A DNA stretch of 32,248 bases from a virus (lineage: Duplodnaviria > Caudoviricetes), in the IMG/VR virus record IMGVR_UViG_3300011339_000283, positions 1 to 32,248 of that record. One strand, 5' to 3'. A program made the position numbers and the translations under genes. A model generated the notes under the pieces. That model had not been told where the DNA came from. It worked only from the letters and a program-made list of their open reading frames with translations, and made no database searches. The first letter of the stretch is position 1. Each line of letters begins with the position of its first letter. Positions 6,478-32,248 of the stretch are shown in pieces.

Positions 6478-9400
6478 ATGGACAGAGACAAGGCAATCCG
6501 CGCAGCGAAGCTGACGGCCAATCGCATCTCAAACGAGAGCGACCGCCTTGAAACATCGACCCAAGATGCCTCACATATTTTTGGGGATGGTGCGGCTTAC
6601 AAGTTTTACAAGCACCCCAAAAGTGGTGGGTACATCCAAATCCTTCAACGGCCAAGCGGCCCAGCCTCCGTAATTAACCTTGAAGTACCCGAAGAATTTA
6701 GAGGCCAAGGTATTGGTCAAAGACTTCAAGCTGAGGCCATGAAAAATCACCCATCACTTATGGGTCAGGTGTCATCTAAAGCAGCCGCAACAACAGCGTA
6801 CAGGCTTGGCCGTAGACCTTATGGAAACCCAGAGGCAACGCTTGATGATGTGTTTAAAGGCATAGACAGTGACAGTTCTGTCAACATGCTGACCCCCGAT
6901 GCACAACCAAAATCAAAAGGCGGCGCACTTGAGCTTGCCCGCCACGCCACGGCGGTGGGCCGCGCGGGCGGCCAAGTCGCCCCGTCAGAATACCTGCCTG
7001 ATGTCCCCCGCGCCGTCCATGCCGATGGTGGCCCCGCCATGTTTGAGGGCATTCACCCAGACCTTCGAGGCGAAAGCGGCGCACCGCTTGACCTGTATCA
7101 CGGCACGACACACCCAGAAGAGTTTGAGGCGTTTGACGATGCCAAGCTCGGCGCGCGTGACGCTGGCTTCTTTGGTCGTGGCCACTACCTATCGCCCGAT
7201 AAGGGAAATGCGGAAGAGTACGGCGAAGACGGCACCGTAATCGGCCCGCTCCACGCCGCATTGAAGAACCCATACGTTTGGGATGTGTCGAATGACATGA
7301 GGTCACACAGCACCCTGCGTGATCTTCAGTCTATGGGTATCATGCGTGACAAGAACGAACTAAGGCCTTGGGATAACCTGCAATCTCACCACGTCAGGCC
7401 ATTTATGGCGGAGATGCAAAAGCGCGGACATGATGGTGTGATCGTTAAGACTGGCCATGAACACCTGCCCAATGGCATCTCAGAGGTGGTGGCGTTTGAT
7501 CCACGGTCGATCAAGCACAAAGAGGCTGAGGTGTTTGACCCCACCGACCCCCGCATTCGCCGTGAGAATGGCGGCGAGGTTGAGAAAAAGCGCGACTTTA
7601 TGAGGGACAACCCTGGCGGCGAGTGGCTTGAGGGCAAGCGGGCAAGGGCTGCCCAGTACCCAGGCGATAAATTTATGATTGGTGCCACCACGGGCGTAAT
7701 TGGAGGCAGATCAAGCATGTTTTTGCCAACCAATGTCCTGAAGGGCATTACTGGTTTGGAAAACGAAGTGCGCCGTACTGGTGATCCTAGATACGATGCG
7801 TTGCTAGCCGACGCGCAGAGTGGTGGCTTTGACCCAGAGCAAAAGGGTAACAAGGTTGTGGTGGCCGTAAACCACTTTGGGCAGCCGTACCTCCTTGAGG
7901 GAAACACACGGGTGGCCGTGGCGCACTCCATGGGCATCCCAAAGGTCAAGGCCGAGGTCAGATACTGGAATGGCGCTGAGAATGTTGACGGCCCAATGCA
8001 CCCAGAAAACGTCTTTGACATGGCATCGGACAGCCCCGATGTCGCCAAAGCCACGGGTGGCCCCGTCATGGGCTATGTCCCGATGGCGTCCCTGACCGTT
8101 CCACGGCTGGCCGTTGCGCGCGCGCCAGTGCAGCAGCAGCAGGCGACCGTGGGCAAGTTCAGCGACTCCCTGAACTCTCTGATGGACACCGTCGAGGGCT
8201 TCAAGAAGAAGCCAGAGGCTGATGCCCCAGCGGAATCGCCCAGCGCAGCCAGTGAAGGTCACGCGCCTCAAGGCATGAGCGAGGCGGCGGCGGCAGCATA
8301 CGGAAAGCTGACTGACGCATGGGGGCAGCCCCTCACCGTTGTCAGCGCGTACCGCGACCCAGAGAAGAACCAAGAGGTTGGCGGCGCAAAGGGCAGCCAG
8401 CACCTGCATGGCAACGCATACGACATTGACACGTCAAAGCTTTCCTATGAGGATCGCCTGCGCCTTGCCGATGAGGCGTGGAATGCTGGTTTCAGGGGTA
8501 TTGGCTTCTATGATAACAACATGCACTTTGATGTTGGCGACCCCCGTGGTTGGGGGCCGTCTCACAGCAGGGACAGCATCCCAGAGTGGGCGCAGCCCTT
8601 TACTCAGGAGCGTTATGGCTATGCAGACGGAGGAAGCGCGATGAACGATGACAACCAAGACACCAGTGGCAGAAGCAATGTTGAGAGCCTCTCACTGGCT
8701 CGATCTTTGCGAAATATTGGCTCTGGCGGCGGAGATGATCGAGTCCAAAACCTTTTTGACAAGATCGCTGCTGGGCAACAGCAGGCGCAAAAAGCTTATG
8801 AAATGGCCCATTCAAACGGAGAGTTTGACGACTTCAAGATCGGCGATACGTTTGTTTACAAGCATTCAAAAAACCCCACCCCCATGAAGATAACTGGATT
8901 TTCGGTCAGCCGTGCGGAGTCATTCCCGCAAAGAAAGCGCATCTACAACAACCATGTCCCTGTACTGGAGATGGAAGACCAAGATGCTGGCAAGAAGGTC
9001 AACAAGTACCCTGTGGAGGCGTTCCAAGAAAACCTCCACAAGTACGATTTTGTCAGTGGAAAGCCGCGCGCCGTAAAGGCTGGCGGCGGATCGATAAACG
9101 ACGATAACCAAAACGGAGCAATGGAAAATGGCAATGCACCCATCAATTCTGCAACACGCCCCCAAGCGGGAGAACTTCCAAACGCAGGAGGAATACGAGG
9201 AGGCGCTGGCCTTCTTCAAACACAGAACGAAGCACCTCTTGAGGGACTCCCCCAAAAAATAGTCATCCCTCTGACGGGTCAGGTCATTCAGGCGGGTGCA
9301 GATCCTCGGATCAGGCAAGTTGCGCGTGACTACATGGCGCAGGCAGGGCTGTCATACAGCCCGCCGACAAAATACGCTAGGGTTGACCCGAAGCGGGCCG

Positions 9401-10173
9401 CGCGCATCGCCTCTGACTATACCGACATGGAAGACAATCCTGATGATCCCCTGACCAAAGCATCGTACAATGCAATGATTAAGGAAACGATGGATCAGTA
9501 TCACGCCGCAAAGAAATCTGGCTTGAATATTGAGTTTTGGAACCCCCGAAAGCAGGAAGATCCTTACAAAGCATCACCACGTCTTGCCACGGAAGACATT
9601 CGCAAGAACCACCACATGTGGGTATTCCCTACCTACTCAGGGTATGGAAGTGGTGAGCCGATCAGTGAGGATGACGCAAAGAAAAACCCCCTTCTCCAGC
9701 TTACTGGAGAGACGTGGAATGGCATCCCCGTGACCGTCAATGACGTGTTCCGCGCCATCCACGACTATTACGGCCACGCAAAAGAAGGGCTAGGGTTCCG
9801 CGCCGACGGTGAGGAAAACGCATGGCGCGCACATGCTTCAATGTTCTCGCCGCTTGCCCGCATGGCCATGACATCTGAAACCCGTGGGCAGAATAGCTGG
9901 CTCAATTATGGCCCGCATGGCGAGCATAACCGCAAGGCCCGCACCGAGGACACTATTTTTGCTCCACAAAAGATTGGGGTCATGTCCCACCTGTCCCATC
10001 ACGAGGGTGCCGAGGACTTTATCACGCCCGAAGACATCAGCTTCATGGCGTCAATTCGCAAAAGATTTGGCAAGAAACTGGGCGGCGCGGTTGAAAAGGC
10101 CCTTGCCTTAACACGCAGATTTACGAAGGATGGGAAGTCTGCTATAGATGCGCTCAAACCCAAGGGGAAGTGA
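6478..10173 (+). CDS. Large polyvalent protein: GNAT + ADP-ribosyltransferase + ParB-like + M15 peptidase + HDxxGH domain
   Basis: GNAT LEVPEEFRGQGIG (~6600-6815); ART LYHGT..FFGRGHYLS..GHDGVIV..SEVVAF (~7090-7560); ParB/Srx-like YLLEGNTRVAVAHSMG (~7565-8040); M15 SAYR..SQHLHGNAYD..MHFD (~8270-8610); FRAIHDYYGH..GEENAW..ETRGQNSW (~9230-10070). Confidence 0.85.
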   Translation: MDRDKAIRAAKLTANRISNESDRLETSTQDASHIFGDGAAYKFYKHPKSGGYIQILQRPSGPASVINLEVPEEFRGQGIGQRLQAEAMKNHPSLMGQVSSKAAATTAYRLGRRPYGNPEATLDDVFKGIDSDSSVNMLTPDAQPKSKGGALELARHATAVGRAGGQVAPSEYLPDVPRAVHADGGPAMFEGIHPDLRGESGAPLDLYHGTTHPEEFEAFDDAKLGARDAGFFGRGHYLSPDKGNAEEYGEDGTVIGPLHAALKNPYVWDVSNDMRSHSTLRDLQSMGIMRDKNELRPWDNLQSHHVRPFMAEMQKRGHDGVIVKTGHEHLPNGISEVVAFDPRSIKHKEAEVFDPTDPRIRRENGGEVEKKRDFMRDNPGGEWLEGKRARAAQYPGDKFMIGATTGVIGGRSSMFLPTNVLKGITGLENEVRRTGDPRYDALLADAQSGGFDPEQKGNKVVVAVNHFGQPYLLEGNTRVAVAHSMGIPKVKAEVRYWNGAENVDGPMHPENVFDMASDSPDVAKATGGPVMGYVPMASLTVPRLAVARAPVQQQQATVGKFSDSLNSLMDTVEGFKKKPEADAPAESPSAASEGHAPQGMSEAAAAAYGKLTDAWGQPLTVVSAYRDPEKNQEVGGAKGSQHLHGNAYDIDTSKLSYEDRLRLADEAWNAGFRGIGFYDNNMHFDVGDPRGWGPSHSRDSIPEWAQPFTQERYGYADGGSAMNDDNQDTSGRSNVESLSLARSLRNIGSGGGDDRVQNLFDKIAAGQQQAQKAYEMAHSNGEFDDFKIGDTFVYKHSKNPTPMKITGFSVSRAESFPQRKRIYNNHVPVLEMEDQDAGKKVNKYPVEAFQENLHKYDFVSGKPRAVKAGGGSINDDNQNGAMENGNAPINSATRPQAGELPNAGGIRGGAGLLQTQNEAPLEGLPQKIVIPLTGQVIQAGADPRIRQVARDYMAQAGLSYSPPTKYARVDPKRAARIASDYTDMEDNPDDPLTKASYNAMIKETMDQYHAAKKSGLNIEFWNPRKQEDPYKASPRLATEDIRKNHHMWVFPTYSGYGSGEPISEDDAKKNPLLQLTGETWNGIPVTVNDVFRAIHDYYGHAKEGLGFRADGEENAWRAHASMFSPLARMAMTSETRGQNSWLNYGPHGEHNRKARTEDTIFAPQKIGVMSHLSHHEGAEDFITPEDISFMASIRKRFGKKLGGAVEKALALTRRFTKDGKSAIDALKPKGK

Positions 10174-10174
10174 C

Positions 10175-12469
10175 ATGGCTGACATCAAAAAGGCAATGGA
10201 TTTGGTGTCTAAGTACCAAGATCCGCCAAGCAAGAGGATGCAGGGGTTTGATTGGCGCAAGCTGAGAGATGTTCAAGAAGAACTTGGCGGCATGACCGAG
10301 ATACCAAGTCACGTTGAAGATTTTGGCGCGTACATGGACGAAATGGCGCGCAAGGCCGCAACAACTGGACTTTCCCCGCGCGAATTGATCAAGGCCTACG
10401 CCATTACACGGGCAAGCATTCAGCGGCGTTCCCAGAACGTTGATAAATTACGTGCGTCTGGCCTTATATTGCCGCAGAGCGCCACTGGCAGCATTAGGCC
10501 AGAAGGGGCAATGGCCGAGTGGCTGAAGTCGCCAATGGGGCAACGCTACCTTGATGCTGCTGAGATGGGCAAAGTCAATCAAGAAGCTGTTGAACATGCG
10601 CAAGGTGTGATGAAACCGTTTGGGTTGGATACCGAAAGGGATGCTTTGCCGTGGGCCGCAAATAATTTGCATGACAAGCACCAAGCCGTTTCTGACATGG
10701 TGAAGAGGGCGCTGTCAGGCAACAGCCCTATTGCAGAGTGGCGCGAGTTTGCAAACGGATTGCGTGGGATTGGCACTGCAAAAGCTGGTTTTGTGGCGTC
10801 CGTTCTTGGCCGTGGCGATCAGTCCACACTTGATGCTCGCCAAATAAACCTTCACGTTGGAAAACCATCCAATAAGGATGAGAAACGTGTTCGTGACAAT
10901 GCTATTGCAAGGTCTGGATTTGACGCTGTTGACCGACTTTCCGCTCGTCAAACGGCACTTAACCCAAAGATGGACTCTGGATTGGAACCTTTCCGCCAAC
11001 ACCTGACCCACCACGCGACATGGGATAAGATTGGCAATGAGCAGACAACGCATAGCGACATTATAGACTCTATGAAGAACGCCAAAGACGGCGGTCGTAT
11101 TGGGTACGCCACAAAGGGTTCTGTTAAAGACGACAGTGAAGACCACCCTCTGGCCAAATCTTTTTTGAACGCAATACACGGAAGCGTGAACCAAGGAATG
11201 GTGCGGCAAGCTCTTGAGGCTGCTAAGACATCTGGGTTCATTCGAACAGGTGCTGACTTGATTAGGCGTGACCCCCGTTTACAAATTTCGCAACCTAAGT
11301 TGTCCAGCTTAAAGGATAGTAAAAAAAGCGGCCACTTGATCACACCATTTGGGGATTTTCAGGCTGAATTTGCACCCAAGAACAATCTGTCACCTCAGAA
11401 ATACGTCAACATTGAAAGGATGCAGAACGAGGGTGCCTACATCAGACCATTTGTTGGCGATAAGACTCCAGCAGACACCATTCTTTTAGGCCATAACGGC
11501 GTACCGCTTGTTGATCCAGTAAATCAAGAAGGTGGTGGCGACTATATGCGGTCTGATTACTCTCGAACTAACCAACCAACAGGCTGGAGATCGCGTGAAG
11601 GAGCGGCTAAGGGTATGCAGAGTCGTGTTGGCCAAGACGTTCCTGAAGGATCGCCAATCTACGGCGCTCACATGTTGATGGGCAACCCCGCCGCAGATAG
11701 CTCGCACATGCTTTTGCACTCTGTAATCAATCAAGTACCAAATTTGCCAATTGCAAAGCGTCACATTGATGCATTTGATGAGGAAATGCGTGAAAAGTTT
11801 CCGCATGACGAGAAATATCCAATGCCTTGGCCTGGAATTTTAAACACCAATGCGGTTCACGATTTCTTTTACAGGCAGCCAACCGTAGTTCGTGGCAAAA
11901 AGGGTCAGCCAGACATGATTCGCCCTCAACCTAGACCTGGCAAGCACGTTGCAAAATTTATCCAGAACATGGACAGTGTCCGCTGGCAATCAACTGGCTT
12001 TCCCAATGTTGGGTCTGCAAGATTTGCCAATATACACCCAGATTTGATGGCGGAGCCGCAAGGCGCAGTTGGATATGGCCTTACCCAACTTGACCCAAAG
12101 GGCGCACTGGTGGCAAACGATGAAATGCGCGCCCACGGCACCTACACTCACGGCATACCAACATTGGGATACGCTGGACGCTTCCGCGCATTGGTTCCTG
12201 CCGAGAAACTGTATGAGCGTGACGTAAAGAACGCTAATACTTCAACAGAAGCGCAGCAGACCCTTGCAACCAAGTTTCCTGCGATCAAAGTGGATCAGAG
12301 GGTGGTCGATTTGGTGAAGGGCGCTGAGGAAGAACGCATGAAGGAATACGGCTTCAAGCGTGGCGGCAAGGCCAAAAACATAGATCGTGCATTGAAGCTC
12401 ACTTCGATGTACAATGAAAGCGCAACAGGGACGCCTGGTAACCTCAGAGGATCGAAAAATGGACGCTAA
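10175..12469 (+). CDS. Two-domain polyvalent-type protein; N-terminal HhH DNA-glycosylase-like domain plus unknown domain
   Basis: ATG 10175 after AAGGGGAAG; LRGIGTAKAGF...LG....TLD (10760-10834); domains separated by AKDGGRIGYATKGSV. Confidence 0.75.
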   Translation: MADIKKAMDLVSKYQDPPSKRMQGFDWRKLRDVQEELGGMTEIPSHVEDFGAYMDEMARKAATTGLSPRELIKAYAITRASIQRRSQNVDKLRASGLILPQSATGSIRPEGAMAEWLKSPMGQRYLDAAEMGKVNQEAVEHAQGVMKPFGLDTERDALPWAANNLHDKHQAVSDMVKRALSGNSPIAEWREFANGLRGIGTAKAGFVASVLGRGDQSTLDARQINLHVGKPSNKDEKRVRDNAIARSGFDAVDRLSARQTALNPKMDSGLEPFRQHLTHHATWDKIGNEQTTHSDIIDSMKNAKDGGRIGYATKGSVKDDSEDHPLAKSFLNAIHGSVNQGMVRQALEAAKTSGFIRTGADLIRRDPRLQISQPKLSSLKDSKKSGHLITPFGDFQAEFAPKNNLSPQKYVNIERMQNEGAYIRPFVGDKTPADTILLGHNGVPLVDPVNQEGGGDYMRSDYSRTNQPTGWRSREGAAKGMQSRVGQDVPEGSPIYGAHMLMGNPAADSSHMLLHSVINQVPNLPIAKRHIDAFDEEMREKFPHDEKYPMPWPGILNTNAVHDFFYRQPTVVRGKKGQPDMIRPQPRPGKHVAKFIQNMDSVRWQSTGFPNVGSARFANIHPDLMAEPQGAVGYGLTQLDPKGALVANDEMRAHGTYTHGIPTLGYAGRFRALVPAEKLYERDVKNANTSTEAQQTLATKFPAIKVDQRVVDLVKGAEEERMKEYGFKRGGKAKNIDRALKLTSMYNESATGTPGNLRGSKNGR

Positions 12470-14174
12470 AAGCCTACGCGAGGCAATGAAGCAGAAGGCC
12501 AAGCGCCTCTGCGGAGCCACTTCGGAAAAAGTTGACGCATCGACGTTTACCCCAGCTGAGCCGCTGAACGCAGACGTGAAGACGGGCGCTCGCCCAGTCT
12601 CTCGCCGCGCATTCAAGGTCGGCGGCAAGGTGGATGGCGCTGAAGCCATGACCCACGCTGGCCGCACACCGCGCAAGTCTGGTGGAAAAACGGAATACGC
12701 CAACGCATTGGTGAACCGTAACGTCAAGGATGCCAATGAAGAGCGCGAAGGCATTAAGCACGTAGGTGGTTTTGCCAAAGGCGGTGTTCCAGAATACAAC
12801 GAAGAATCCGTCGAGAAAGCTATACAGTCTTCGCGCCAGAAGATTGGCAAGAAGGAGTCCAGCACGATTAAGTCCCTACTTCAGGGTCGCAAGGCATCTA
12901 TGCCGATGAAGAAAAATGACGATGGCAATACAGAGTACGCCAAAGGTGGACGTATCTCCAAAATGGGCGGTGGCCCGATGGACGCCAAAAAGGGTGAGGG
13001 CAAGATGACTGCCCCATTGGATCACTATCAGCCCCTGCCTCAAGAGGAGCGTTCAAACATCATCACCATGGATCAAGCTGACGAAATGATGCGCGAAGAA
13101 ATGCGCCGTCAGGGCGACATGACCCGCCGCAAACATGGTGGCAAGACCGAGGGTTCTGCCAAGGACATGATGGAAGACAAGAAGATGGCTGCCAAGATGG
13201 GCATGACCATGAAGGAATGGGAAGCATCCCATGCCGACAAGATGCACGACATGCCATCCAAGGGCCGCACCAAGAAGATGGGCGGCGGCAGCATGGGTTA
13301 CGCCGCTGGCGGAAAAATGAAGATGGTCGAGAAAGACGGCAAGAAGGTTCCATTCTTTGCCGCTGACGGCGTTGGCAAGATGGCAAACGGTGGCGGCCTG
13401 TACGCCAACATCCACGCCAAGCGCGAGCGCATTGAAGACGGCTCGAAAGAGAAGATGCGCAAGCCAGGTGCCAAGGGCGCTCCATCCGCCTCTGACTTCA
13501 AGGACGCAGCCAAGACCGCCATGAAAAAGGGCGGCGTTGCACCTCTTTTACCCCCCGTTAAAGAAAGAGATTTTCCAATTAGCGGCAGGGATATGCCGAC
13601 AGAAATGCGGCAAGAAAGTGATCGATACGCTGGCGATTTAACTCGCCGCAAGTCTGGCGGCAGCGCCATGAAGAAGGGCGGAAAGGCCATGCACCACAAG
13701 GACTGCATGTGCAAGGCCTGCGGTGGCGCTGCGATGTCTGAAGAGGGTGGCCGCACGGCCCGCAAGTCTGGTGGTAAGGTTGGCAAGAGCAACATCAGCA
13801 TCAACATCTACCCGCACACCGCCGAGAAGGCTGGCGCTATGCCCGTCCCACCCGCTGGTATGCCGCCCATGATGAAGCCACCAATGCCAATGCCTGCGCC
13901 CATGCCGTCGGCACCGCCCCCAGCCCACATGTCGCTCCCTCCAGGGCTGCAGCAGGCTCTGGCAGGCGCTGCGGGCGCTGGGCCTATGCCACCCGCTGGC
14001 GGTGGGATGCCTCAGCCCATGATGAACCGCCCCCCAATGCCTGCGCCTATGATGGGCCGCAAGGCTGGCGGCAGAGTGGAATACCCAATCACTGGCGGTT
14101 CTGGTGGCGGGCGCGCTCGCAAGGAAAAGGTCACAGCCTACGGCGAAAAGATGAACAAAGACCTCAGAAAGTAA
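12459..14174 (+). CDS. Low-complexity K/M/G-rich protein with many xxxGG repeats and Pro/Met-rich C-terminus; probable internal virion protein
   Basis: GAGG before ATG 12459; at least 15 GG motifs separating short peptides. Confidence 0.8.
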   Translation: MDAKSLREAMKQKAKRLCGATSEKVDASTFTPAEPLNADVKTGARPVSRRAFKVGGKVDGAEAMTHAGRTPRKSGGKTEYANALVNRNVKDANEEREGIKHVGGFAKGGVPEYNEESVEKAIQSSRQKIGKKESSTIKSLLQGRKASMPMKKNDDGNTEYAKGGRISKMGGGPMDAKKGEGKMTAPLDHYQPLPQEERSNIITMDQADEMMREEMRRQGDMTRRKHGGKTEGSAKDMMEDKKMAAKMGMTMKEWEASHADKMHDMPSKGRTKKMGGGSMGYAAGGKMKMVEKDGKKVPFFAADGVGKMANGGGLYANIHAKRERIEDGSKEKMRKPGAKGAPSASDFKDAAKTAMKKGGVAPLLPPVKERDFPISGRDMPTEMRQESDRYAGDLTRRKSGGSAMKKGGKAMHHKDCMCKACGGAAMSEEGGRTARKSGGKVGKSNISINIYPHTAEKAGAMPVPPAGMPPMMKPPMPMPAPMPSAPPPAHMSLPPGLQQALAGAAGAGPMPPAGGGMPQPMMNRPPMPAPMMGRKAGGRVEYPITGGSGGGRARKEKVTAYGEKMNKDLRK

Positions 14175-14445: not shown

Positions 14446-14835
14446 ATGCCCCATATGCCCATGAGCCACGAAGAAGACCCAAAGAAAAAGCTGCTGGAAG
14501 AGCTTGGTGACATCTCAAACGTTGAGTTGTTCCACAACCAAGTACTTCTTGCCGTCTACCTGCGGCCAGAAAAGACAAAATCTGGCCTGATTTTGACTGC
14601 AAATCACCTTGATGAAGATCGATACCAGTCAAAAGTTGGCCTGCTGGTCAAGCGAGGGCCTCTCGCATTTGAGCAGGACGGCAATTGGTTCACTGGAGTG
14701 ACCTTCCAAGACCACGACTGGCTCATTTTCCGCCCATCTGACGGCTGGTCTATCACCGTCAATGGCGTTTTGTGCCGCATTTTTGATGACATCAGCATCA
14801 AGGGCCGCGCACCCCACCCAGATTCCGTTTATTGA
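14446..14835 (+). CDS. GroES/Cpn10-like co-chaperonin
   Basis: LFHNQVLL, mobile-loop EKTKSGLIL, GLLVKRGP, DWLIF, ITVNGVLCRIFDDISI. Confidence 0.85.
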   Translation: MPHMPMSHEEDPKKKLLEELGDISNVELFHNQVLLAVYLRPEKTKSGLILTANHLDEDRYQSKVGLLVKRGPLAFEQDGNWFTGVTFQDHDWLIFRPSDGWSITVNGVLCRIFDDISIKGRAPHPDSVY

Positions 14836-19055: not shown

Positions 19056-19364
19056 ATGACCCCCGTCACAATCTCAAAAACTGGCACTGGGCGGAGCGCG
19101 GTCATTGCCTCTGACAGTTTCCAAAACCCCTTTAATGTCGGCGTCATCGCAGTCGTATCTGGCACGGCCACGTTCAACATTGAAATTTCAATGGATGATC
19201 CCTCAGTGGTAACCCCGTCCGTGTGGGCCGTTGACGCTGGCTTCTCGGCCAAGACCGCATCCACAAATGGGTCGATCACGGTTCCGCACCACGCGCTTTC
19301 GATCAACGTGACCTCTGGCTCTGGCACCGTTACGGCATATATCGTTCAGGCGGGTATTCGGTAA
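19056..19364 (+). CDS. Small beta-rich virion protein candidate
   Basis: AGGAG RBS; VVSGTATFNIEISMD, ALSINVTSGSGTVTAYIVQAG. Confidence 0.7.
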   Translation: MTPVTISKTGTGRSAVIASDSFQNPFNVGVIAVVSGTATFNIEISMDDPSVVTPSVWAVDAGFSAKTASTNGSITVPHHALSINVTSGSGTVTAYIVQAGIR

Positions 19365-19615
19365 TGGCAAAGACACCTGCTTGGCAGAGGGCTGAGGGAA
19401 AAAATCCAGCTGGCGGTCTCAATGCAAAGGGCCGAGCATCAGCAAAGGCTCAGGGCATGAACCTGAAGCCACCAGCGCCAAATCCAAAGACGGAAAAGGA
19501 TGCTGGGCGCAAGAAGTCATTCTGCGCCAGGATGTCTGGCATGGAAGGCCCGATGACGGACGAGAAGGGCAAGCCAACTCGCAAAGCCCTGTCCCTGAAA
19601 GCATGGAAGTGTTAA
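19364..19615 (+). CDS. Small basic phage protein (resembles DUF6321, from memory)
   Basis: PAWQRAEGKNPAGGLNAKGRAS...RKKSFCARM...LKAWKC. Confidence 0.7.
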   Translation: MAKTPAWQRAEGKNPAGGLNAKGRASAKAQGMNLKPPAPNPKTEKDAGRKKSFCARMSGMEGPMTDEKGKPTRKALSLKAWKC

Positions 19616-19618
19616 AAA

Positions 19619-20221
19619 ATGACCACCAGCGTTTTCTATGTGTACGAACACTGGCGGCTTGACCGTGATGAATGTTTTTACGTTGGTAAGGGTAAGGGCA
19701 TTCGCGCATACAAGATGCGTGACCGTAATGCTCATCATCGGGCAATTATGGGTAAACTATCCCGCGAAGGTAGCGGCATGGAAGTGCGCATGGTTGCGAC
19801 AGGCTTGACTGAGGATGAGGCATTTGCGATTGAGGTTGAACGTATTGCTTTTTGGCGTGAGGCTGGCATTGATCTTGCAAATCGCACTAATGGCGGAGAT
19901 GGTGTAAGCGGCTTGAAGATGTCGGATGAAGCTAAGGCCAAAATGTCCGCTGCCAAACTTGGGAAGAAGCAAAAACCAGATGTTGTAGCTAGGCGCATTG
20001 CCCCCCTAATTGGCCGCAAACAGCCGCGAGAGGCAATAGAGATGGGTGCTGAAAAACGCCGTGGTAATCCGCTTTCGGCAGAGCATAAAGCTAAAATTTC
20101 AGCCGCACACACAGGAAAGATTGTAAGCGATGAGACGAGGGCTTCTCTGAGCGCTGCCAATAAAGGTAAACCGTGGAGTGAGAAGCGCAGGGTTGCGGAG
20201 AATACCAGGAGGGAGCTATGA
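19619..20221 (+). CDS. Free-standing GIY-YIG-like homing endonuclease with NUMOD3 repeats
   Basis: FYVYEH..FYVGKG..R, EAFAIE, LANRTNGGDG, repeats SDEAKAKMS / SAEHKAKIS / SDETRASLS. Confidence 0.85.
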   Translation: MTTSVFYVYEHWRLDRDECFYVGKGKGIRAYKMRDRNAHHRAIMGKLSREGSGMEVRMVATGLTEDEAFAIEVERIAFWREAGIDLANRTNGGDGVSGLKMSDEAKAKMSAAKLGKKQKPDVVARRIAPLIGRKQPREAIEMGAEKRRGNPLSAEHKAKISAAHTGKIVSDETRASLSAANKGKPWSEKRRVAENTRREL

Positions 20222-20898
20222 CCACTAGTGGTGCATACACGTTTAATCCAGGATTGGGAGAAATAGTTCTCTATGCTTATCAAAACATAGGCATACGTCC
20301 AGCTTCTATTTTGCAAGAACACATGGAGACAGCAAGAATGGCTGCCAACATGATGCTTTCAAGATTTTCAAATCAGGGCGTAAACCTTTGGGCGGTTGAC
20401 CTGATCACCACGCCACTGATTGAGGGCCAGACCACCTACGCCGTAGCGCCAAACACAGTCATGATCCTCGACGCATATACCACGACCGATCAGGGCATCG
20501 ACCGTGTCATCATGCCAATCAGCCGTACAGAGTACGCATCATACCCGAACAAAGAACAACAGGGCTTCGTCACGTCCTTCTGGTATGACCGCCTCATCTC
20601 GCCCACAATCACGCTGTGGCCCGTTCCTGATGGCACCTCGTCCACGATCTTGAAGTACTATCGTGTGCGCCAGATCCAAGACTCAAATCTCCAAAATAAC
20701 GAAAATGTCGAAATTCCCTATTTGTGGCTGGAGTGCTTTGCTGACGGACTGGCATACCGACTGGCGCGCATCTGGAACCCGCAAATGGCCGTGGCACTCA
20801 AGGCTCAGGCCGATGAGAGCTATGCCATCGCATCCAACCAGAACGTGGAGAATGTCGGCACGTACATCTCACCAATGTTGGGGTCGTATTTTAGATGA
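20218..20898 (+). CDS. Head-tail adaptor protein (paralog 1)
   Basis: ISRTEYASYPNK, WYDR..ITLWPVPD, EIPYLWLECFADGLAYRLA. Confidence 0.7.
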   Translation: MTTSGAYTFNPGLGEIVLYAYQNIGIRPASILQEHMETARMAANMMLSRFSNQGVNLWAVDLITTPLIEGQTTYAVAPNTVMILDAYTTTDQGIDRVIMPISRTEYASYPNKEQQGFVTSFWYDRLISPTITLWPVPDGTSSTILKYYRVRQIQDSNLQNNENVEIPYLWLECFADGLAYRLARIWNPQMAVALKAQADESYAIASNQNVENVGTYISPMLGSYFR

Positions 20899-21548
20899 AA
20901 AAGTTTTACGTATATGAGCATTGGCGACCCGATCTTGACCTCCCGTTTTATGTGGGCAAGGGTAGTGCGTCTAGGTTTGACCCAAATCGAACCAGAAACA
21001 AACATCACAGCAATATAAAGAACAAGCTAAAGAAGCTTGGAATGTGCGTAGAGGTACGCATGGTTGCATCTGGCCTTTCTGAGGATGACGCATTGCGCTT
21101 GGAGATAGAGCGAATTGCTTTTTGGAAAGAACGCAACGTTGAACTTTCAAACAAAACTGCTGGCGGTGACGGTTTGAAAAGCCCGCCTGAAGACGTATTA
21201 GAAAAAATGAGGGCTGCATCCAAAAAACGTTGGTCTGCGCCTGATTCAAGAGAGAAGCACTCCATTGCCACCAAAATTGGCATGGATAATGATGCTGTAA
21301 GGGCAAAGTGTTCTGGCGGGCGGGCGGGAAGAAAAGCATCTTTAGAAACGAAGGCAAAGATGTCTATTTCAGCTATGGGTCATCCCGTATCCGAGGAAGC
21401 CCGTAAAAAAATATCCAAGGCACACCTTGGCAATACCTATGGATCAAAGACCCGTGGAAAGCCAAGGCCAAAAATGTCTGATGACACAAAGGCAAAAATG
21501 AGAGAGTCTCAACGTGCGCGGCGCGAACGAGAAAAGGCTTTGTCGTAA
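20895..21548 (+). CDS. Second GIY-YIG-like homing endonuclease with NUMOD3 repeats
   Basis: FYVYEHWR..FYVGKG..R, VRMVASGLSEDDALRLE, LSNKTAGGDG, SLETKAKMS / SEEARKKIS / SDDTKAKM. Confidence 0.85.
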   Translation: MKKFYVYEHWRPDLDLPFYVGKGSASRFDPNRTRNKHHSNIKNKLKKLGMCVEVRMVASGLSEDDALRLEIERIAFWKERNVELSNKTAGGDGLKSPPEDVLEKMRAASKKRWSAPDSREKHSIATKIGMDNDAVRAKCSGGRAGRKASLETKAKMSISAMGHPVSEEARKKISKAHLGNTYGSKTRGKPRPKMSDDTKAKMRESQRARREREKALS

Positions 21549-28867: not shown

Positions 28868-29434
28868 ATGCCGCTAAAGCATGGATCATCGCAGGAAACC
28901 ATTTCTGATAATATCTCAGAGATGGTGGACGCTGGACACCCACAGGATCAGGCTATCGCCGCAGCCCTCAGAACCGCTCGCGCGCGCGGTGGAAGGACAA
29001 AGGTTCACAAGGGTGCCATCCACAGTTCTGTGGCTGGCCGCACAGACCACCTCCCGATGCATGTGGCATCTGGCTCCTACGTCATCCCCGCAGACATCAT
29101 CTCGGCCATGGGTGAGGGAAATTCCATGGCTGGCTTCAAGGTCGCCAAGAACATCTTCTCTGGCAAGAGGCCGTACGGGCAAAGCGGGATGCCATACGGG
29201 GCCAACGGGCTTCCATACGGCGTTCCAGCCCCACGCAAGGCTGAGGGTGGTGATGTTGATTCAGTACCCATCGTTGCGGCTGGCGGCGAGTATGTGATAC
29301 CACCCGAAGACGTTGTCGAGATTGGCAAGGGTGATCTGGATCACGGCCACAAAATATTGGACGCATTCGTAAAAAAGATGCGCCAAAGGACGATTAAAAC
29401 TTTGCAGAAATTACCTGGCCCAAAGAAGGATTAA
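28868..29434 (+). CDS. Protein with duplicated GG...G(S/E)YVIP domain
   Basis: RARGG...DHLPMHVASGSYVIPADIISAMGEG and KAEGGDVDSVPIVAAGGEYVIPPEDVVEIGKG. Confidence 0.8.
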   Translation: MPLKHGSSQETISDNISEMVDAGHPQDQAIAAALRTARARGGRTKVHKGAIHSSVAGRTDHLPMHVASGSYVIPADIISAMGEGNSMAGFKVAKNIFSGKRPYGQSGMPYGANGLPYGVPAPRKAEGGDVDSVPIVAAGGEYVIPPEDVVEIGKGDLDHGHKILDAFVKKMRQRTIKTLQKLPGPKKD

Positions 29435-29437
29435 AGC

Positions 29438-29929
29438 ATGAGTGAGATTAAGGTTCGCGTTGGGGTTCCCGAAGATTTCAATGAGATGATGCGGCTCTCG
29501 ATTGCGGCGACACAGGAAAACGCCTTCATTGCGCCAGACATTGGGCTGCTCGCAAACCAAGTGTATAAGTCACTGATCCAACAGAACGGTGTGGTTGGGG
29601 TGATTGGTAATAAGGTCGGCGGAAAGCTTCAGGGAGCGATCCTGCTCAATATCGGCCCAGTGTGGTACAGCGCGGAGCCTGTCCTTGAGGAGAAGGCGAT
29701 CTACGTTGACCCTGAGTACCGAGCCGCAAAGGGTGGGCGCGCGCGCAAGCTGGCCGAATTCGCAAAGGGAATGGCCGAGGAGCTTGACTTGCCACTGGCC
29801 ATTGGTGTGCTGTCAAACAGCAGGACTGAGGCTAAGATCAGGCTCTACGAGCGAACCTTTGGTAAGCCTGCGGGTGTCTACTTCCTTTACAATGCAAAGA
29901 CTGGTATAGTTCCCGAAACCGAGGGGTAA
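29438..29929 (+). CDS. GNAT-family acyltransferase
   Basis: VRVGVPEDF, LEEKAIYVDPEYR..GGRARKL, KIRLYERTFG; AAGGA upstream. Confidence 0.8.
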   Translation: MSEIKVRVGVPEDFNEMMRLSIAATQENAFIAPDIGLLANQVYKSLIQQNGVVGVIGNKVGGKLQGAILLNIGPVWYSAEPVLEEKAIYVDPEYRAAKGGRARKLAEFAKGMAEELDLPLAIGVLSNSRTEAKIRLYERTFGKPAGVYFLYNAKTGIVPETEG

Positions 29930-29933
29930 TCCA

Positions 29934-32248
29934 ATGGGCGGCAAGACAACAACCTCAACGAACAAGGTCACCATTCCCAAGGATGTCCTTGATCGGTATA
30001 ATGCCGTCAACGCTCAGGCGGCGCAAGCTGCCCAGAACCCGTTCCAAAAGTACGGCACTAAGCCTGAGGATTTTGTCGCCCAGTTCAACGAACAGCAACT
30101 GAAGGGTGTTGAGGGCATCAATACCGTCGCTGGTATGGGGCCAGTGTATGAAAACGTGGACAAGTATCTCAACCCCTACATTAAGAACGTTGCTGACACT
30201 ACCCGCGCGCAGATAGAGCAAGCCAATGAGCAGGCGCAGTCTGGCGCACTCGGCACCGCCATACAGTCCAATGCATTTGGTGGCGACCGCGCTGGCGTTG
30301 CCGCCGCAAACCTCGCGGGACAACAAAATCTTGCCATGGGTTCGACCATGGCAAACATTTACGGCGAGGGCTATAATAGGGCCGTCGACACAAGCATGAA
30401 TGACAGGAACAGCCTGTTGGGCGTTGCTGGTGCGCAGTTGGGCGCAGGTACTCAGATGCAGCAGACCACGCAGGCTGGCATTGACGCTCTTATCAACCAG
30501 TTCCAGCAGGAGCAGGGCTATCCATTCCAAGTGGCGCAGTTCTTGGCCAACATTGCCATGGGAACTGGCGCGCTGTCTGGATCAACCACCACAGGTACCC
30601 AGATGGCACCCTTCTTCTCGGATCGCCGCCTCAAGCACGACATCAAAAAGATTGGCGAGGCGGACAACGGCCTGCCGATCTACACCTTCAAGTACAAGGG
30701 TGATGAGCATCACCAGACCCATGTCGGCTTTATGGCTGATGAGGTTGAGAAGAAAAACCCTGAAGCTGTGGGCCTCGACCCCAGTGGCTACAAGACTGTT
30801 GACTACAACAAGGCCACGGAGAGCATGGGTGGCGCGGTCAAGGGATACGCTGAAGGCGGTGTGGCTGGGCCATACGGCACCAAGGTTGGCCAAGGTGTGG
30901 GCGTGGGCAGCTATGTGCCGCAGGCGTACCTTCCAGTTGGCGAGTTGATGGTGGCAGACCCAAGTTTTGCCCAGCAAAGCCAAGCAAACTTCTTGGATAC
31001 CCTAAATTCAGCGGCCACCGCAGGCGAGAGCGTTTTGAAAATACGCAATCTCCTTCGTGATCCTGACGCAAAGGTACCAACAAAAGAACCCGCCGCGCCT
31101 GCTGCTGCAGGTAATATCCAACAGTTCGAACCGCCAGCAGGCCTTATAGGCGGTGGCGCGGGGCGCTATGCTGTTGGCGGTGGGGTGCAGCCACAGGTGC
31201 ATGGCGATTATATGTCCAGCACACTGGCGGCGCAGGAGGCTGACAAGGACAAGCCAGAACTTAAGGTTGCTGGACAACAAGATCAGCCGAAGTCTGGCAT
31301 GGAAAACGTTGCCAGTGCCTTGGGGGCTGCCGCATCCATTGCGTCCCTATTCCCGTCTGACCGCCGCCTAAAGCATGATATTAAGAGAATTGGTAAGACT
31401 GAAAAAGGTCTGCCGATTTACACCTTCAAGTACAAGGGTGATGACCGCGAGCAAACCCACGTTGGCTTCATGGCCGATGAGGTTGAGCGCGACCATCCAG
31501 AGGCCGTTGGCAAGCGGGATGGCTACAAAACCGTTGACTACAGCCAAGCCCACAAGTTTGCCGATGGTGGCGTTGCGGGCCGTCATGGCTATGCCCTTGA
31601 TGGCGCAGTCGAGGAGCGCATTCGTGATGCCATGCGCGCAACCGCAGCCAATGAGAACAACATGCGCCTGACCCGCGATGAAGTACCCGCCGTGCAGACA
31701 CTGGGAAGCCTGCCCAATGCGAGCGTTATGGCTGCAGAGGCAGCGCCAAGGACAGCAGACGAGTCGGCAAACGCCTACAGGGCTGCCGCTGAAAACCGCT
31801 TTGCTGGCCTCGCCCCCGCTGCTGATCAGGTACGCCCTATGCCACGTCCCGCTGGCTTGGTTCCCGCCGCCACTCCCACCGTGGAACAGCGCCCAGAGCC
31901 TCGCCCAGCTGGCCTTGGCCCCGCTGCGGTAGTAAAGCCCATGCCTCGTCCAGAGGGTCTTGAGGCCTTTGCAACTGGTTATGGCGCGGCCCGAAACCAC
32001 TTCCGTACAAAAATTATTCCCCAAGAAAGCGGTGGTCGCCAGTTTGACGAAAACGGCCAACCGCTGACCTCACCCAAGGGCGCAACTGGCATTGCGCAAG
32101 TTATGAAAGCCACGGGGCCAGAAGCGGCTAAACTTGCAAATTTACCGTGGGATGAATACCCCTGGGAAAAAGATGCCGATTACAATGCTGCGATTGGTGA
32201 GGCATATTTCCTAGATCAGTATCGCAAATCTGGCCCTATTGATAAGGC
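29934..32248 (+). CDS. Ejection/DNA-transfer-type polyprotein (3' truncated): pilot-like N-domain, two peptidase S74 domains, lytic transglycosylase
   Basis: Hand translation: open from ATG 29934 (MGGKTTTST...) to window end; Q/A/G-rich with NAFGGDR; SDRRLKHDI at 30618 and 31356; IIPQESGG..SPKGATGIAQVM from ~32013. Confidence 0.9.
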   Translation, partial: MGGKTTTSTNKVTIPKDVLDRYNAVNAQAAQAAQNPFQKYGTKPEDFVAQFNEQQLKGVEGINTVAGMGPVYENVDKYLNPYIKNVADTTRAQIEQANEQAQSGALGTAIQSNAFGGDRAGVAAANLAGQQNLAMGSTMANIYGEGYNRAVDTSMNDRNSLLGVAGAQLGAGTQMQQTTQAGIDALINQFQQEQGYPFQVAQFLANIAMGTGALSGSTTTGTQMAPFFSDRRLKHDIKKIGEADNGLPIYTFKYKGDEHHQTHVGFMADEVEKKNPEAVGLDPSGYKTVDYNKATESMGGAVKGYAEGGVAGPYGTKVGQGVGVGSYVPQAYLPVGELMVADPSFAQQSQANFLDTLNSAATAGESVLKIRNLLRDPDAKVPTKEPAAPAAAGNIQQFEPPAGLIGGGAGRYAVGGGVQPQVHGDYMSSTLAAQEADKDKPELKVAGQQDQPKSGMENVASALGAAASIASLFPSDRRLKHDIKRIGKTEKGLPIYTFKYKGDDREQTHVGFMADEVERDHPEAVGKRDGYKTVDYSQAHKFADGGVAGRHGYALDGAVEERIRDAMRATAANENNMRLTRDEVPAVQTLGSLPNASVMAAEAAPRTADESANAYRAAAENRFAGLAPAADQVRPMPRPAGLVPAATPTVEQRPEPRPAGLGPAAVVKPMPRPEGLEAFATGYGAARNHFRTKIIPQESGGRQFDENGQPLTSPKGATGIAQVMKATGPEAAKLANLPWDEYPWEKDADYNAAIGEAYFLDQYRKSGPIDK
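30618..31553 (+). repeat. Dispersed direct repeat encoding the two S74 domains (~30618-30815 and ~31356-31553)
   Basis: For example ctgccgat(c/t)tacaccttcaagtacaagggtgatga is present in both copies. Confidence 0.9.

What the first reader, a model, noticed from the sequence alone, without database searches (positions are those of the whole stretch)
30618..31553. Two internal self-cleaving S74 domains dividing an ejection protein
Seen: PFF-SDRRLKHDIKKIG..GFMADEVE..PEAV..GYKTVDY (Ser229) and LFP-SDRRLKHDIKRIG..GFMADEVE..PEAV..GYKTVDY (Ser475), both with the Ser/Lys dyad and each followed directly by GG motifs instead of a coiled coil. Known: S74 is normally a single C-terminal trimerisation chaperone of tailspikes that cleaves at this Ser. 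Inference: repurposed as internal scissors, yielding a 228-aa pilot, a middle piece and an SLT-bearing piece; GG cleavage would then excise each S74. The ORF track misses this gene because it has no stop in the window.
Basis: partly seen in the sequence, partly recalled or inferred. Interest (0 to 1): 0.78.

Follow-up and report, generated by a model that had tools for sequence, protein, structure and literature searches.

The report
Self-cutting joints in phage ejection polyprotein
A virion protein of an uncultured short-tailed phage carries two intact internal copies of a small self-cutting domain, each sitting where related phages end a separate protein, so the chain likely cuts itself into the pieces that build the DNA-entry channel, although no cut has been shown.

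Summary
Observation confirmed: ORF 29934 to the contig end (771 aa, open) holds two Pfam S74 domains at Ser229 and Ser475, both SDRRLK, both ending where the S74 coiled coil should begin, with a GG motif 7-8 residues later. It is not a quirk. 119 of the top 150 cluster representatives have two copies, the Ser/Lys dyad was intact in every scored copy, and dN/dS is 0-0.10. Copy 2 is a clean indel, re-derived from copy 1 in several lineages. Cultured podophages end their P22 gp7-like ejection protein with the same coil-less S74; P22 gp7 lacks it and aligns up to the residue before the Ser. Best reading (0.65): S74 is a removable cap that, fused into a polyprotein, became internal scissors. Against it: the coil that drives the trimer needed for cleavage in MyRF is missing, the trimer model could not be run, and no cut is shown. 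GG cleavage is untested, and no protease was found. New variant of a known kind; not found in print in ten searches. This scan noted the same layout twice before on other DNA (e1-6266242, e1-9572892).

The parts
29934..32246 (+). Ejection (internal virion) polyprotein, 5' 771 aa; cut off by the contig end; the closest full-length relative P0001 has 1276 aa
   Evidence: P0001 90% identical over aa 1-560; phrog_6121, phrog_4287
29934..30617 (+). Piece 1 (aa 1-228, 24.0 kDa): pilot region related to stand-alone S74-capped, gp7-position ejection proteins; ends in a Ser/Thr linker and APFF
   Evidence: profile of 63 stand-alone pilots with S74 removed hits aa 1-223, E 6e-13 at Z=10000
30618..30806 (+). 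S74 copy 1 (aa 229-291), Ser229/Lys234, no coiled coil
30828..30860 (+). GG motifs after copy 1 (SMGG aa 297-300, YAEGG aa 305-309)
   Evidence: role untested
30861..31355 (+). Middle piece (aa 310-474), with an internal YAVGG motif; ends in a hydrophobic segment aa 455-474 (31296-31355) like the C-terminus of P22 gp7
   Evidence: mean hydropathy of last 18 aa 1.03; gp7 1.13
31356..31541 (+). S74 copy 2 (aa 475-536), Ser475/Lys480, no coiled coil; an optional insert in the family
31557..31604 (+). GG-type motifs after copy 2 (FADGG aa 542-546, YALDG aa 553-557)
31989..32246 (+). Lytic-transglycosylase-like domain (ES motif with Glu698, GIAQVM), truncated by the contig end
   Evidence: (phrog_1044 E 4.5e-18)
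29438..29929 (+). GNAT acetyltransferase directly upstream, the position of P22 gene 14 / 'IVPA' before the first ejection gene
   Evidence: related ORF in 78 of 80 loci; gene order
28868..29434 (+). Conserved 188-aa neighbour with two GG motifs and an internally repeated beta-alpha unit; function not found
   Evidence: related ORF in 76 of 80 loci

Best explanation
This is the first ejection gene of a short-tailed phage, fused with downstream ejection modules into one polyprotein, and its two coil-less S74 domains likely act as self-cutting joints at Ser229 and Ser475. Shown: two intact S74 domains, their fixed positions, their conservation, and the stand-alone counterparts in cultured phages. 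Inferred steps: (1) the ancestral role of this mini-S74 is a removable C-terminal cap on gp7-class ejection proteins; (2) after gene fusion it would release a 228-aa pilot, a middle piece ending in a hydrophobic, probably membrane-inserting helix, and a lytic-enzyme-bearing piece; (3) lacking the coiled coil, it would oligomerise weakly and cut only when many copies are crowded together, as in the procapsid; (4) the spent S74 stays on the N-terminus of the next piece unless a second protease trims it at the GG motif. Step 4 is the weakest.
For: Dyad intact in 174/174 first and 62/62 second copies among 176 unique relatives, in 118/118, 119/119 and 31/31 scored copies among the top 150 50%-identity representatives, and in 65/65 terminal copies of short relatives. 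dN/dS 0.00-0.10 in 13 of 14 window-versus-locus comparisons, one saturated. Cultured phages have GNAT, then a pilot ending in coil-less S74 and a stop: Tb gp23, RHph_N2 gp12, Vibrio 199E37-1 P0012, phiGT1 gp17, which PMC10386132 Table S3 lists as IVPB/gene7 detected in virions. P22 gp7 has no S74 and ends LGSLF; it aligns (aa 98-229, E 2e-5) with Vibrio P0012 aa 90-202, ending on the residue before that protein's S74 Ser; both match phrog_598. Phe precedes the Ser in 42 of 63 stand-alone pilots, SLF in 11 of 63. The gp7 C-terminal helices sit in the outer membrane (10.64898/2026.09.03.749273, passages), which gives a reason to free that end. Copy 2 is a clean insert between the hydrophobic helix and a GG motif that are adjacent in single-copy relatives. 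Monophyly of second copies is rejected (AU p 1.2e-10, 48 domains of 24 hand-picked proteins). MyRF ICA cleavage appears independent of the upstream fold (PMC8326128).
Against: In MyRF the C-terminal triple coiled coil is the main driver of trimerisation, and cleavage needs the trimer (PMC8326128, passages); these domains stop where that helix starts. P22 gp7 assembles as a dodecamer, not a trimer. Copy 2 is dispensable: 69 of 120 relatives have one copy, and 4 of 119 second copies lack the last strand while keeping the SDRRxK motif. The residue before Ser475 is Pro in the window and varies widely in copy 2. A profile of stand-alone pilots did not hit P22 gp7 at E 100, so the link to gp7 runs through one bridging protein and gene order. 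The gp7-like hydrophobic helix precedes copy 2, not copy 1 (hydropathy -0.14 versus 1.16), so the pieces do not map one-to-one on P22 genes. The monomer model is modest (pLDDT 65.5) and gave no significant PDB match. No experimental cut was found for any coil-less S74.
Confidence: 0.65

Rival explanations
1. The mini-S74 does not cut. It is an oligomerisation or capsid-loading tag, and any processing is done by a separate protease at the GG motifs.
For: Coiled coil missing, though needed for cleavage in MyRF; GG motifs mark the same junction in single-copy relatives and are enriched in other large ORFs that have no S74 (13 versus 0.8 expected, 6 versus 0.7).
Against: Both catalytic residues were invariant in every copy scored; stand-alone pilots have the domain and mostly stop 3-15 aa after it; the P22 gp7 end falls at the predicted cut; no protease was found in the window.
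Confidence: 0.18
2. Copy 1 cuts, but copy 2 is a passenger, spawned repeatedly by duplication or gene conversion and tolerated because the GG junction works with or without it.
For: Absent from 69 of 120 relatives, present or absent in close pairs, re-derived from copy 1 in several lineages, truncated in 4 of 119.
Against: dN/dS of copy 2 is 0.02-0.09 in 7 of 7 comparisons; the dyad is kept in 119/119; where the context was read it sits after a hydrophobic segment, and no protein had a third copy at E 1e-3.
Confidence: 0.12
3. It is a tail fibre or spike whose S74 domains chaperone trimer folding, as several database labels say.
For: PHROG 'tail fiber' profiles hit the S74 stretch; some cultured homologues are labelled tail fibre or tailspike.
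Against: The best PHROG hits are virion structural and DNA ejection families; gene order matches P22 14-7-20-16; the upstream sequence is a Gln/Ala-rich pilot; a true fibre S74 in locus L073 keeps its coiled coil.
Confidence: 0.05

Closest known systems
C-terminal intramolecular chaperone / Peptidase_S74 (PF13884) of phage fibres (endoNF, T5 L-fibre, S16 gp37 6F45) and Bdellovibrio MAT fibres
   Same: SDxxxK dyad motif (PMC10769870, passages); Pfam above cut-off; profile match to 6F45 at E 0.003; BFVD top fold hits mostly carry this annotation.
   Different: Internal, two copies, about 62 aa, no coiled coil, and the upstream partner is an ejection protein and not a triple beta-helix.
MyRF / Dictyostelium MrfA ICA domain
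   Same: Internal S74 used as scissors to release a fragment; Ser/Lys dyad (PMC8326128, PMC3828593, passages).
   Different: One copy, a long coiled coil that is essential, a eukaryotic membrane-tethered transcription factor; the fold match was weak (7DC3, E 0.5, TM 0.46).
Stand-alone S74-capped gp7/IVPB proteins of cultured podophages (phiGT1 gp17, phiM5 gp27, RHph_N2 gp12, Brucella phage Tb gp23, Vibrio 199E37-1 P0012)
   Same: Same coil-less domain; same position at the head of the ejection genes, after a GNAT in phiGT1, RHph_N2 and Tb; related pilot region; annotators have noted the S74 domain (GenBank note, shown cut off).
   Different: Single, C-terminal and followed by a stop; in the window it is internal, doubled, followed by GG motifs and fused to later modules. 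Cleavage is not reported in the texts read.
P22 gp7 (DNA ejection protein)
   Same: Gene position, size (229 versus 228 aa), hydrophobic C-terminus ending SLF.
   Different: No S74; its known processing is N-terminal, by host OpdA (record note); no direct profile match to the window protein.
Polyvalent proteins (Iyer et al. 2017, PMC5512222)
   Same: Large injected multi-domain phage proteins proposed to be cut by a built-in peptidase (passages).
   Different: There the peptidase is the zincin-like MPTase; 'S74' and 'GG motif' occur 0 times in the main text.

Membership tests
Peptidase S74 / CIMCD | Sequence match to PF13884 above the curated cut-off | tested here: met
   87.4 bits versus 22, two stretches
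Peptidase S74 / CIMCD | SDxxxK Ser/Lys dyad | tested here: met
   Ser229/Lys234 and Ser475/Lys480; invariant in relatives
Peptidase S74 / CIMCD | Core fold like solved ICA domains | tested here: inconclusive
   Model pLDDT 65.5; PDB best relevant hit MyRF 7DC3 E 0.5; BFVD hits to predicted S74-annotated proteins, E 1e-10 to 1e-4; VIA-align was busy
Canonical fibre chaperone (CIMCD) | C-terminal triple coiled coil | tested here: not met
   GG 7-8 aa after VDY; 21-26% Gly+Pro in the next 35 aa of relatives, while a fibre S74 in L073 has the helix
Canonical fibre chaperone (CIMCD) | Single, C-terminal, behind a triple beta-helix | tested here: not met
   Two internal copies behind a pilot region and a hydrophobic segment
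Peptidase S74 / CIMCD | Trimer formation | not tested
Peptidase S74 / CIMCD | Autocleavage before the Ser | not testable with these tools
   Needs expression or virion proteomics
P22 gp7-class ejection protein | First gene after the gp14/IVPA GNAT, ahead of other internal virion genes | tested here: met
P22 gp7-class ejection protein | Sequence homology to gp7 | tested here: inconclusive
   Indirect only: window to phrog_6121/4287, Vibrio P0012 to these and to phrog_598; no direct hit
P22 gp7-class ejection protein | Packaged in the virion and ejected | not testable with these tools
   Shown only for homologues: phiGT1 gp17, phiM5 gp27 record note

The most novel reading that the evidence does not exclude
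S74 has a second, widespread job apart from fibre folding: a coil-less ~62-aa self-removing cap on gp7-class ejection proteins, cutting only when crowded in the procapsid. A large lineage of uncultured phages has turned it into a copy-and-paste scissors that is re-duplicated to a second joint again and again, making the ejection machinery as a self-processing polyprotein, with a GG-motif protease as a second layer.
Probability: 0.4. Interest if true: 0.75.

Novelty: new variant of a known kind. Interest (0 to 1): 0.58.

Why it matters
How ejection proteins are kept inactive in the producing cell, loaded in fixed ratio and matured is poorly known. A built-in cut that frees a membrane-inserting C-terminus would explain this for a whole class of podophages, including cultured ones whose gene is often mislabelled 'tail fibre'. 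It also tests a stated rule, that S74 cleavage needs the coiled-coil trimer. If the 62-aa domain cuts without it, it is about the smallest self-cleaving tag of this family and possibly a concentration-gated one. One expression experiment with two point mutants decides it.

Tried and rejected
Extending the ORF: the genome is this single contig. PDB sequence searches: window protein, only chance cadherin hits; Tb gp23, none. Genome-contig scan: 128 pattern matches, no relative, so no host was identified. Trimer prediction: tool not available, no verdict. VIA-align fold searches: machine busy five times. Looking for a GG protease: nothing in Pfam, PHROG or NCBIfam for the window ORFs scanned (28, 28 and 8 ORFs; the M15 peptidases found are cell-wall enzymes by family); the 188-aa neighbour gave only unnamed Atlas clusters and a weak 0.77 lead to crAss cargo protein 1, which the passages read in PMC10172136 did not support or explain, and no PDB fold match. 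No RNA holder listed. Assembly artefact rejected. More than two copies: one representative showed 3 stretches but only 2 at domain E 1e-3. The careful tree did not finish; quick trees were used. A tail-fibre S74 ORF in L073/L075 was dropped before the counts. Ten paper searches found no description of internal or doubled S74 in ejection proteins; subscription papers, such as the phiM5 proteome paper, and bioRxiv supplements were not seen and could hold peptide evidence.

Full report
Context. The window is one 32,248-base contig with terminase, SU10-type portal, major head protein, adaptor proteins and a tail-hub-like virion protein: a short-tailed phage by gene content (inference). Its last ORF starts at 29934, just after a GNAT gene, and runs off the end after 771 aa. 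The nearest full-length relative is 1276 aa and 90% identical over aa 1-560. Public runs holding the stretch include viral, riverine and other metagenomes; no host was found.

Observation. Pfam S74 matches twice (E 7.5e-25). SDRRLK begins at Ser229 (30618) and Ser475 (31356). The copies share 48 of 63/62 residues and differ at 47 of 189 aligned bases; contigs from independent runs carry both or bridge between them. Each ends at VDY, which a profile alignment places where the helix of a solved fibre chaperone begins (6F45, E 0.003); a true fibre S74 in locus L073 continues into that helix. Here GG follows after 7 and 8 residues. An SLT-like domain starts near aa 686.

How common. Of 120 protein hits, 49 have two copies, 69 one and 2 none (the query favours doubles). 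A flank-free profile found 17,902 50%-identity representatives at E 0.001; of the top 150, 119 have two copies and 31 one (the ranking favours doubles, so this shows breadth, not frequency). None had three at domain E 1e-3. The dyad was intact in 174/174 and 62/62 copies and in 118/118, 119/119 and 31/31. A profile built from intact copies could miss badly decayed ones. dN/dS was 0.00-0.10 in 13 of 14 comparisons with 7 close loci.

Where the copies sit. Copy 1 follows a Ser/Thr-rich linker and an aromatic residue (Phe or Trp in 170 of 174). Copy 2 follows a hydrophobic segment (mean hydropathy 1.16, n=60, versus -0.14, n=166). In close single-copy relatives that segment is joined straight to a GG motif, for example KIASF-GFADGG against ASIF-[S74]-QAHKFADGG (four pairs, 96 of 114 single-copy proteins mapped, best 70 printed). 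Copy 2 is therefore an optional insert at an existing junction. Second copies are not one clade: at least 4 changes are forced in the quick tree of 236 domains, 9 of 118 resemble their own first copy most, and an AU test rejects monophyly (p 1.2e-10; 24 proteins chosen by me, including such cases). Repeated duplication and gene conversion cannot be told apart. Four of 119 second copies have lost the last strand, so decay also happens.

The ancestral form. Cultured podophages carry the same coil-less domain once, at or near the very end of the first ejection-type gene, which follows a GNAT in Tb, RHph_N2 and phiGT1. Among 120 shorter relatives, 65 have a full terminal domain, all with Ser and Lys. 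phiGT1 gp17 is called IVPB/gene7 and was detected in virions (PMC10386132, Table S3; I saw abstract, passages, legends and part 3 of 3 of the supplement; 'S74' occurs 0 times in text and supplement). Its GenBank note does mention S74 but was shown cut off, so annotators have noticed the terminal form. P22 gp7 has no S74 and ends LGSLF. It aligns with Vibrio phage 199E37-1 P0012 up to Phe202, the residue before that protein's S74 Ser, and both match phrog_598. SLF is also the commonest triplet before the Ser in stand-alone pilots (11 of 63; Phe at the last place in 42 of 63). In infected cells the gp7 dodecamer puts its C-terminal helices into the outer membrane (10.64898/2026.09.03.749273; abstract and passages). 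A cut before the Ser would thus give the same free end that P22 gets from a stop codon. This is the strongest argument for cleavage, and it is inference.

Mechanism. S74 cuts before its Ser with a Ser/Lys dyad; internal use is established in MyRF and MrfA (PMC8326128, PMC3828593; passages), and fibre use in Bdellovibrio MAT proteins (PMC10769870, passages) and jumbo phages (PMC7824862, passages). I infer cuts at 228/229 and 474/475, giving 24.0 kDa, 25.5 kDa and a long lytic-enzyme-bearing piece (masses). The main difficulty is that MyRF needs its coiled coil to trimerise and the trimer to cut. I propose that the coil-less form assembles only when crowded, as in the procapsid, which would time the cut; this is untested. 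The trimer could not be modelled. The monomer model has a compact beta/alpha core at pLDDT 70-80 (mean 65.5), no significant PDB match (MyRF ICA E 0.5), and predicted S74-annotated proteins as most top BFVD hits. Unexplained: the gp7-like hydrophobic helix ends the middle piece, not piece 1, so the pieces do not map simply on P22 gp7/gp20/gp16.

GG motifs. GG lies within 15 aa after 173 of 174 and 61 of 62 domains. A loose GG pattern, defined after seeing the sequences, is enriched over shuffles in this ORF (3 versus 0.55) and in ORFs 12414 (13 versus 0.8) and 6478 (6 versus 0.7), and absent from terminase, major head and tail-hub proteins. It may be a protease site or a loading tag.

Comparison and novelty. 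It belongs to S74 by sequence and dyad, but fails two features of the canonical fibre chaperone (coil; single terminal position behind a beta-helix). It works most like MyRF, in a phage ejection protein. The ejection-protein review (PMC8954989, passages) and the polyvalent-protein paper (PMC5512222, passages) have 0 occurrences of S74 in the main text; PMC10783043 only lists a shared 'chaperone of endosialidase' family (passages). Ten searches found no account of internal or doubled copies; the library lacks most subscription papers. Two earlier notes of this scan report the same layout on other DNA; they are AI notes and are not counted as evidence. Verdict: real, conserved, a new variant of a known kind; best explanation 0.65; interest 0.58.

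Noticed in passing
window 12414-14174, 6478-10173, 10148-12469: Large ORFs between portal and major head gene are studded with GG motifs (13, 6 and 2 against 0.8, 0.7 and 0.3 expected); the 1231-aa ORF is a polyvalent protein with ART-PolyVal and M15 peptidase domains. Possible processed capsid cargo.
   Followed up: partly
window 28868-29434: 188-aa protein found in 76 of 80 loci, with a twice-repeated beta-beta-alpha-alpha unit, invariant GRTDHLP and GGE motifs, and a variable insert ending in GG; no family or fold match.
   Followed up: partly
P0356, P0333, P0218: Other S74 layouts: a 408-aa pilot ending in two S74 in tandem 11 aa apart, a 233-aa protein of two S74-ending repeats, and a 68-aa near free-standing S74 that may be a miscalled start.
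   Followed up: no
relatives of window 31989-32246: The cell-wall enzyme after copy 2 is swapped among relatives: SLT, Phage_lysozyme2, PF05838, PF07486.
   Followed up: no
P0317, P0320, P0335, P0347: Second copies that lost their last strand or half the domain but keep SDRRxK: possible steps in loss of the insert.
   Followed up: partly
L083, L087 and records: S74-ended gp7-position proteins of cultured podophages are labelled tailspike, tail fibre or structural protein; the fibre labels are probably wrong.
   Followed up: partly
window 14446-14835, 19364-19615, 19619-20221, 20895-21548: GroES-like ORF, DUF6321 ORF and two NUMOD3 homing-endonuclease-like ORFs in the head region.
   Followed up: no
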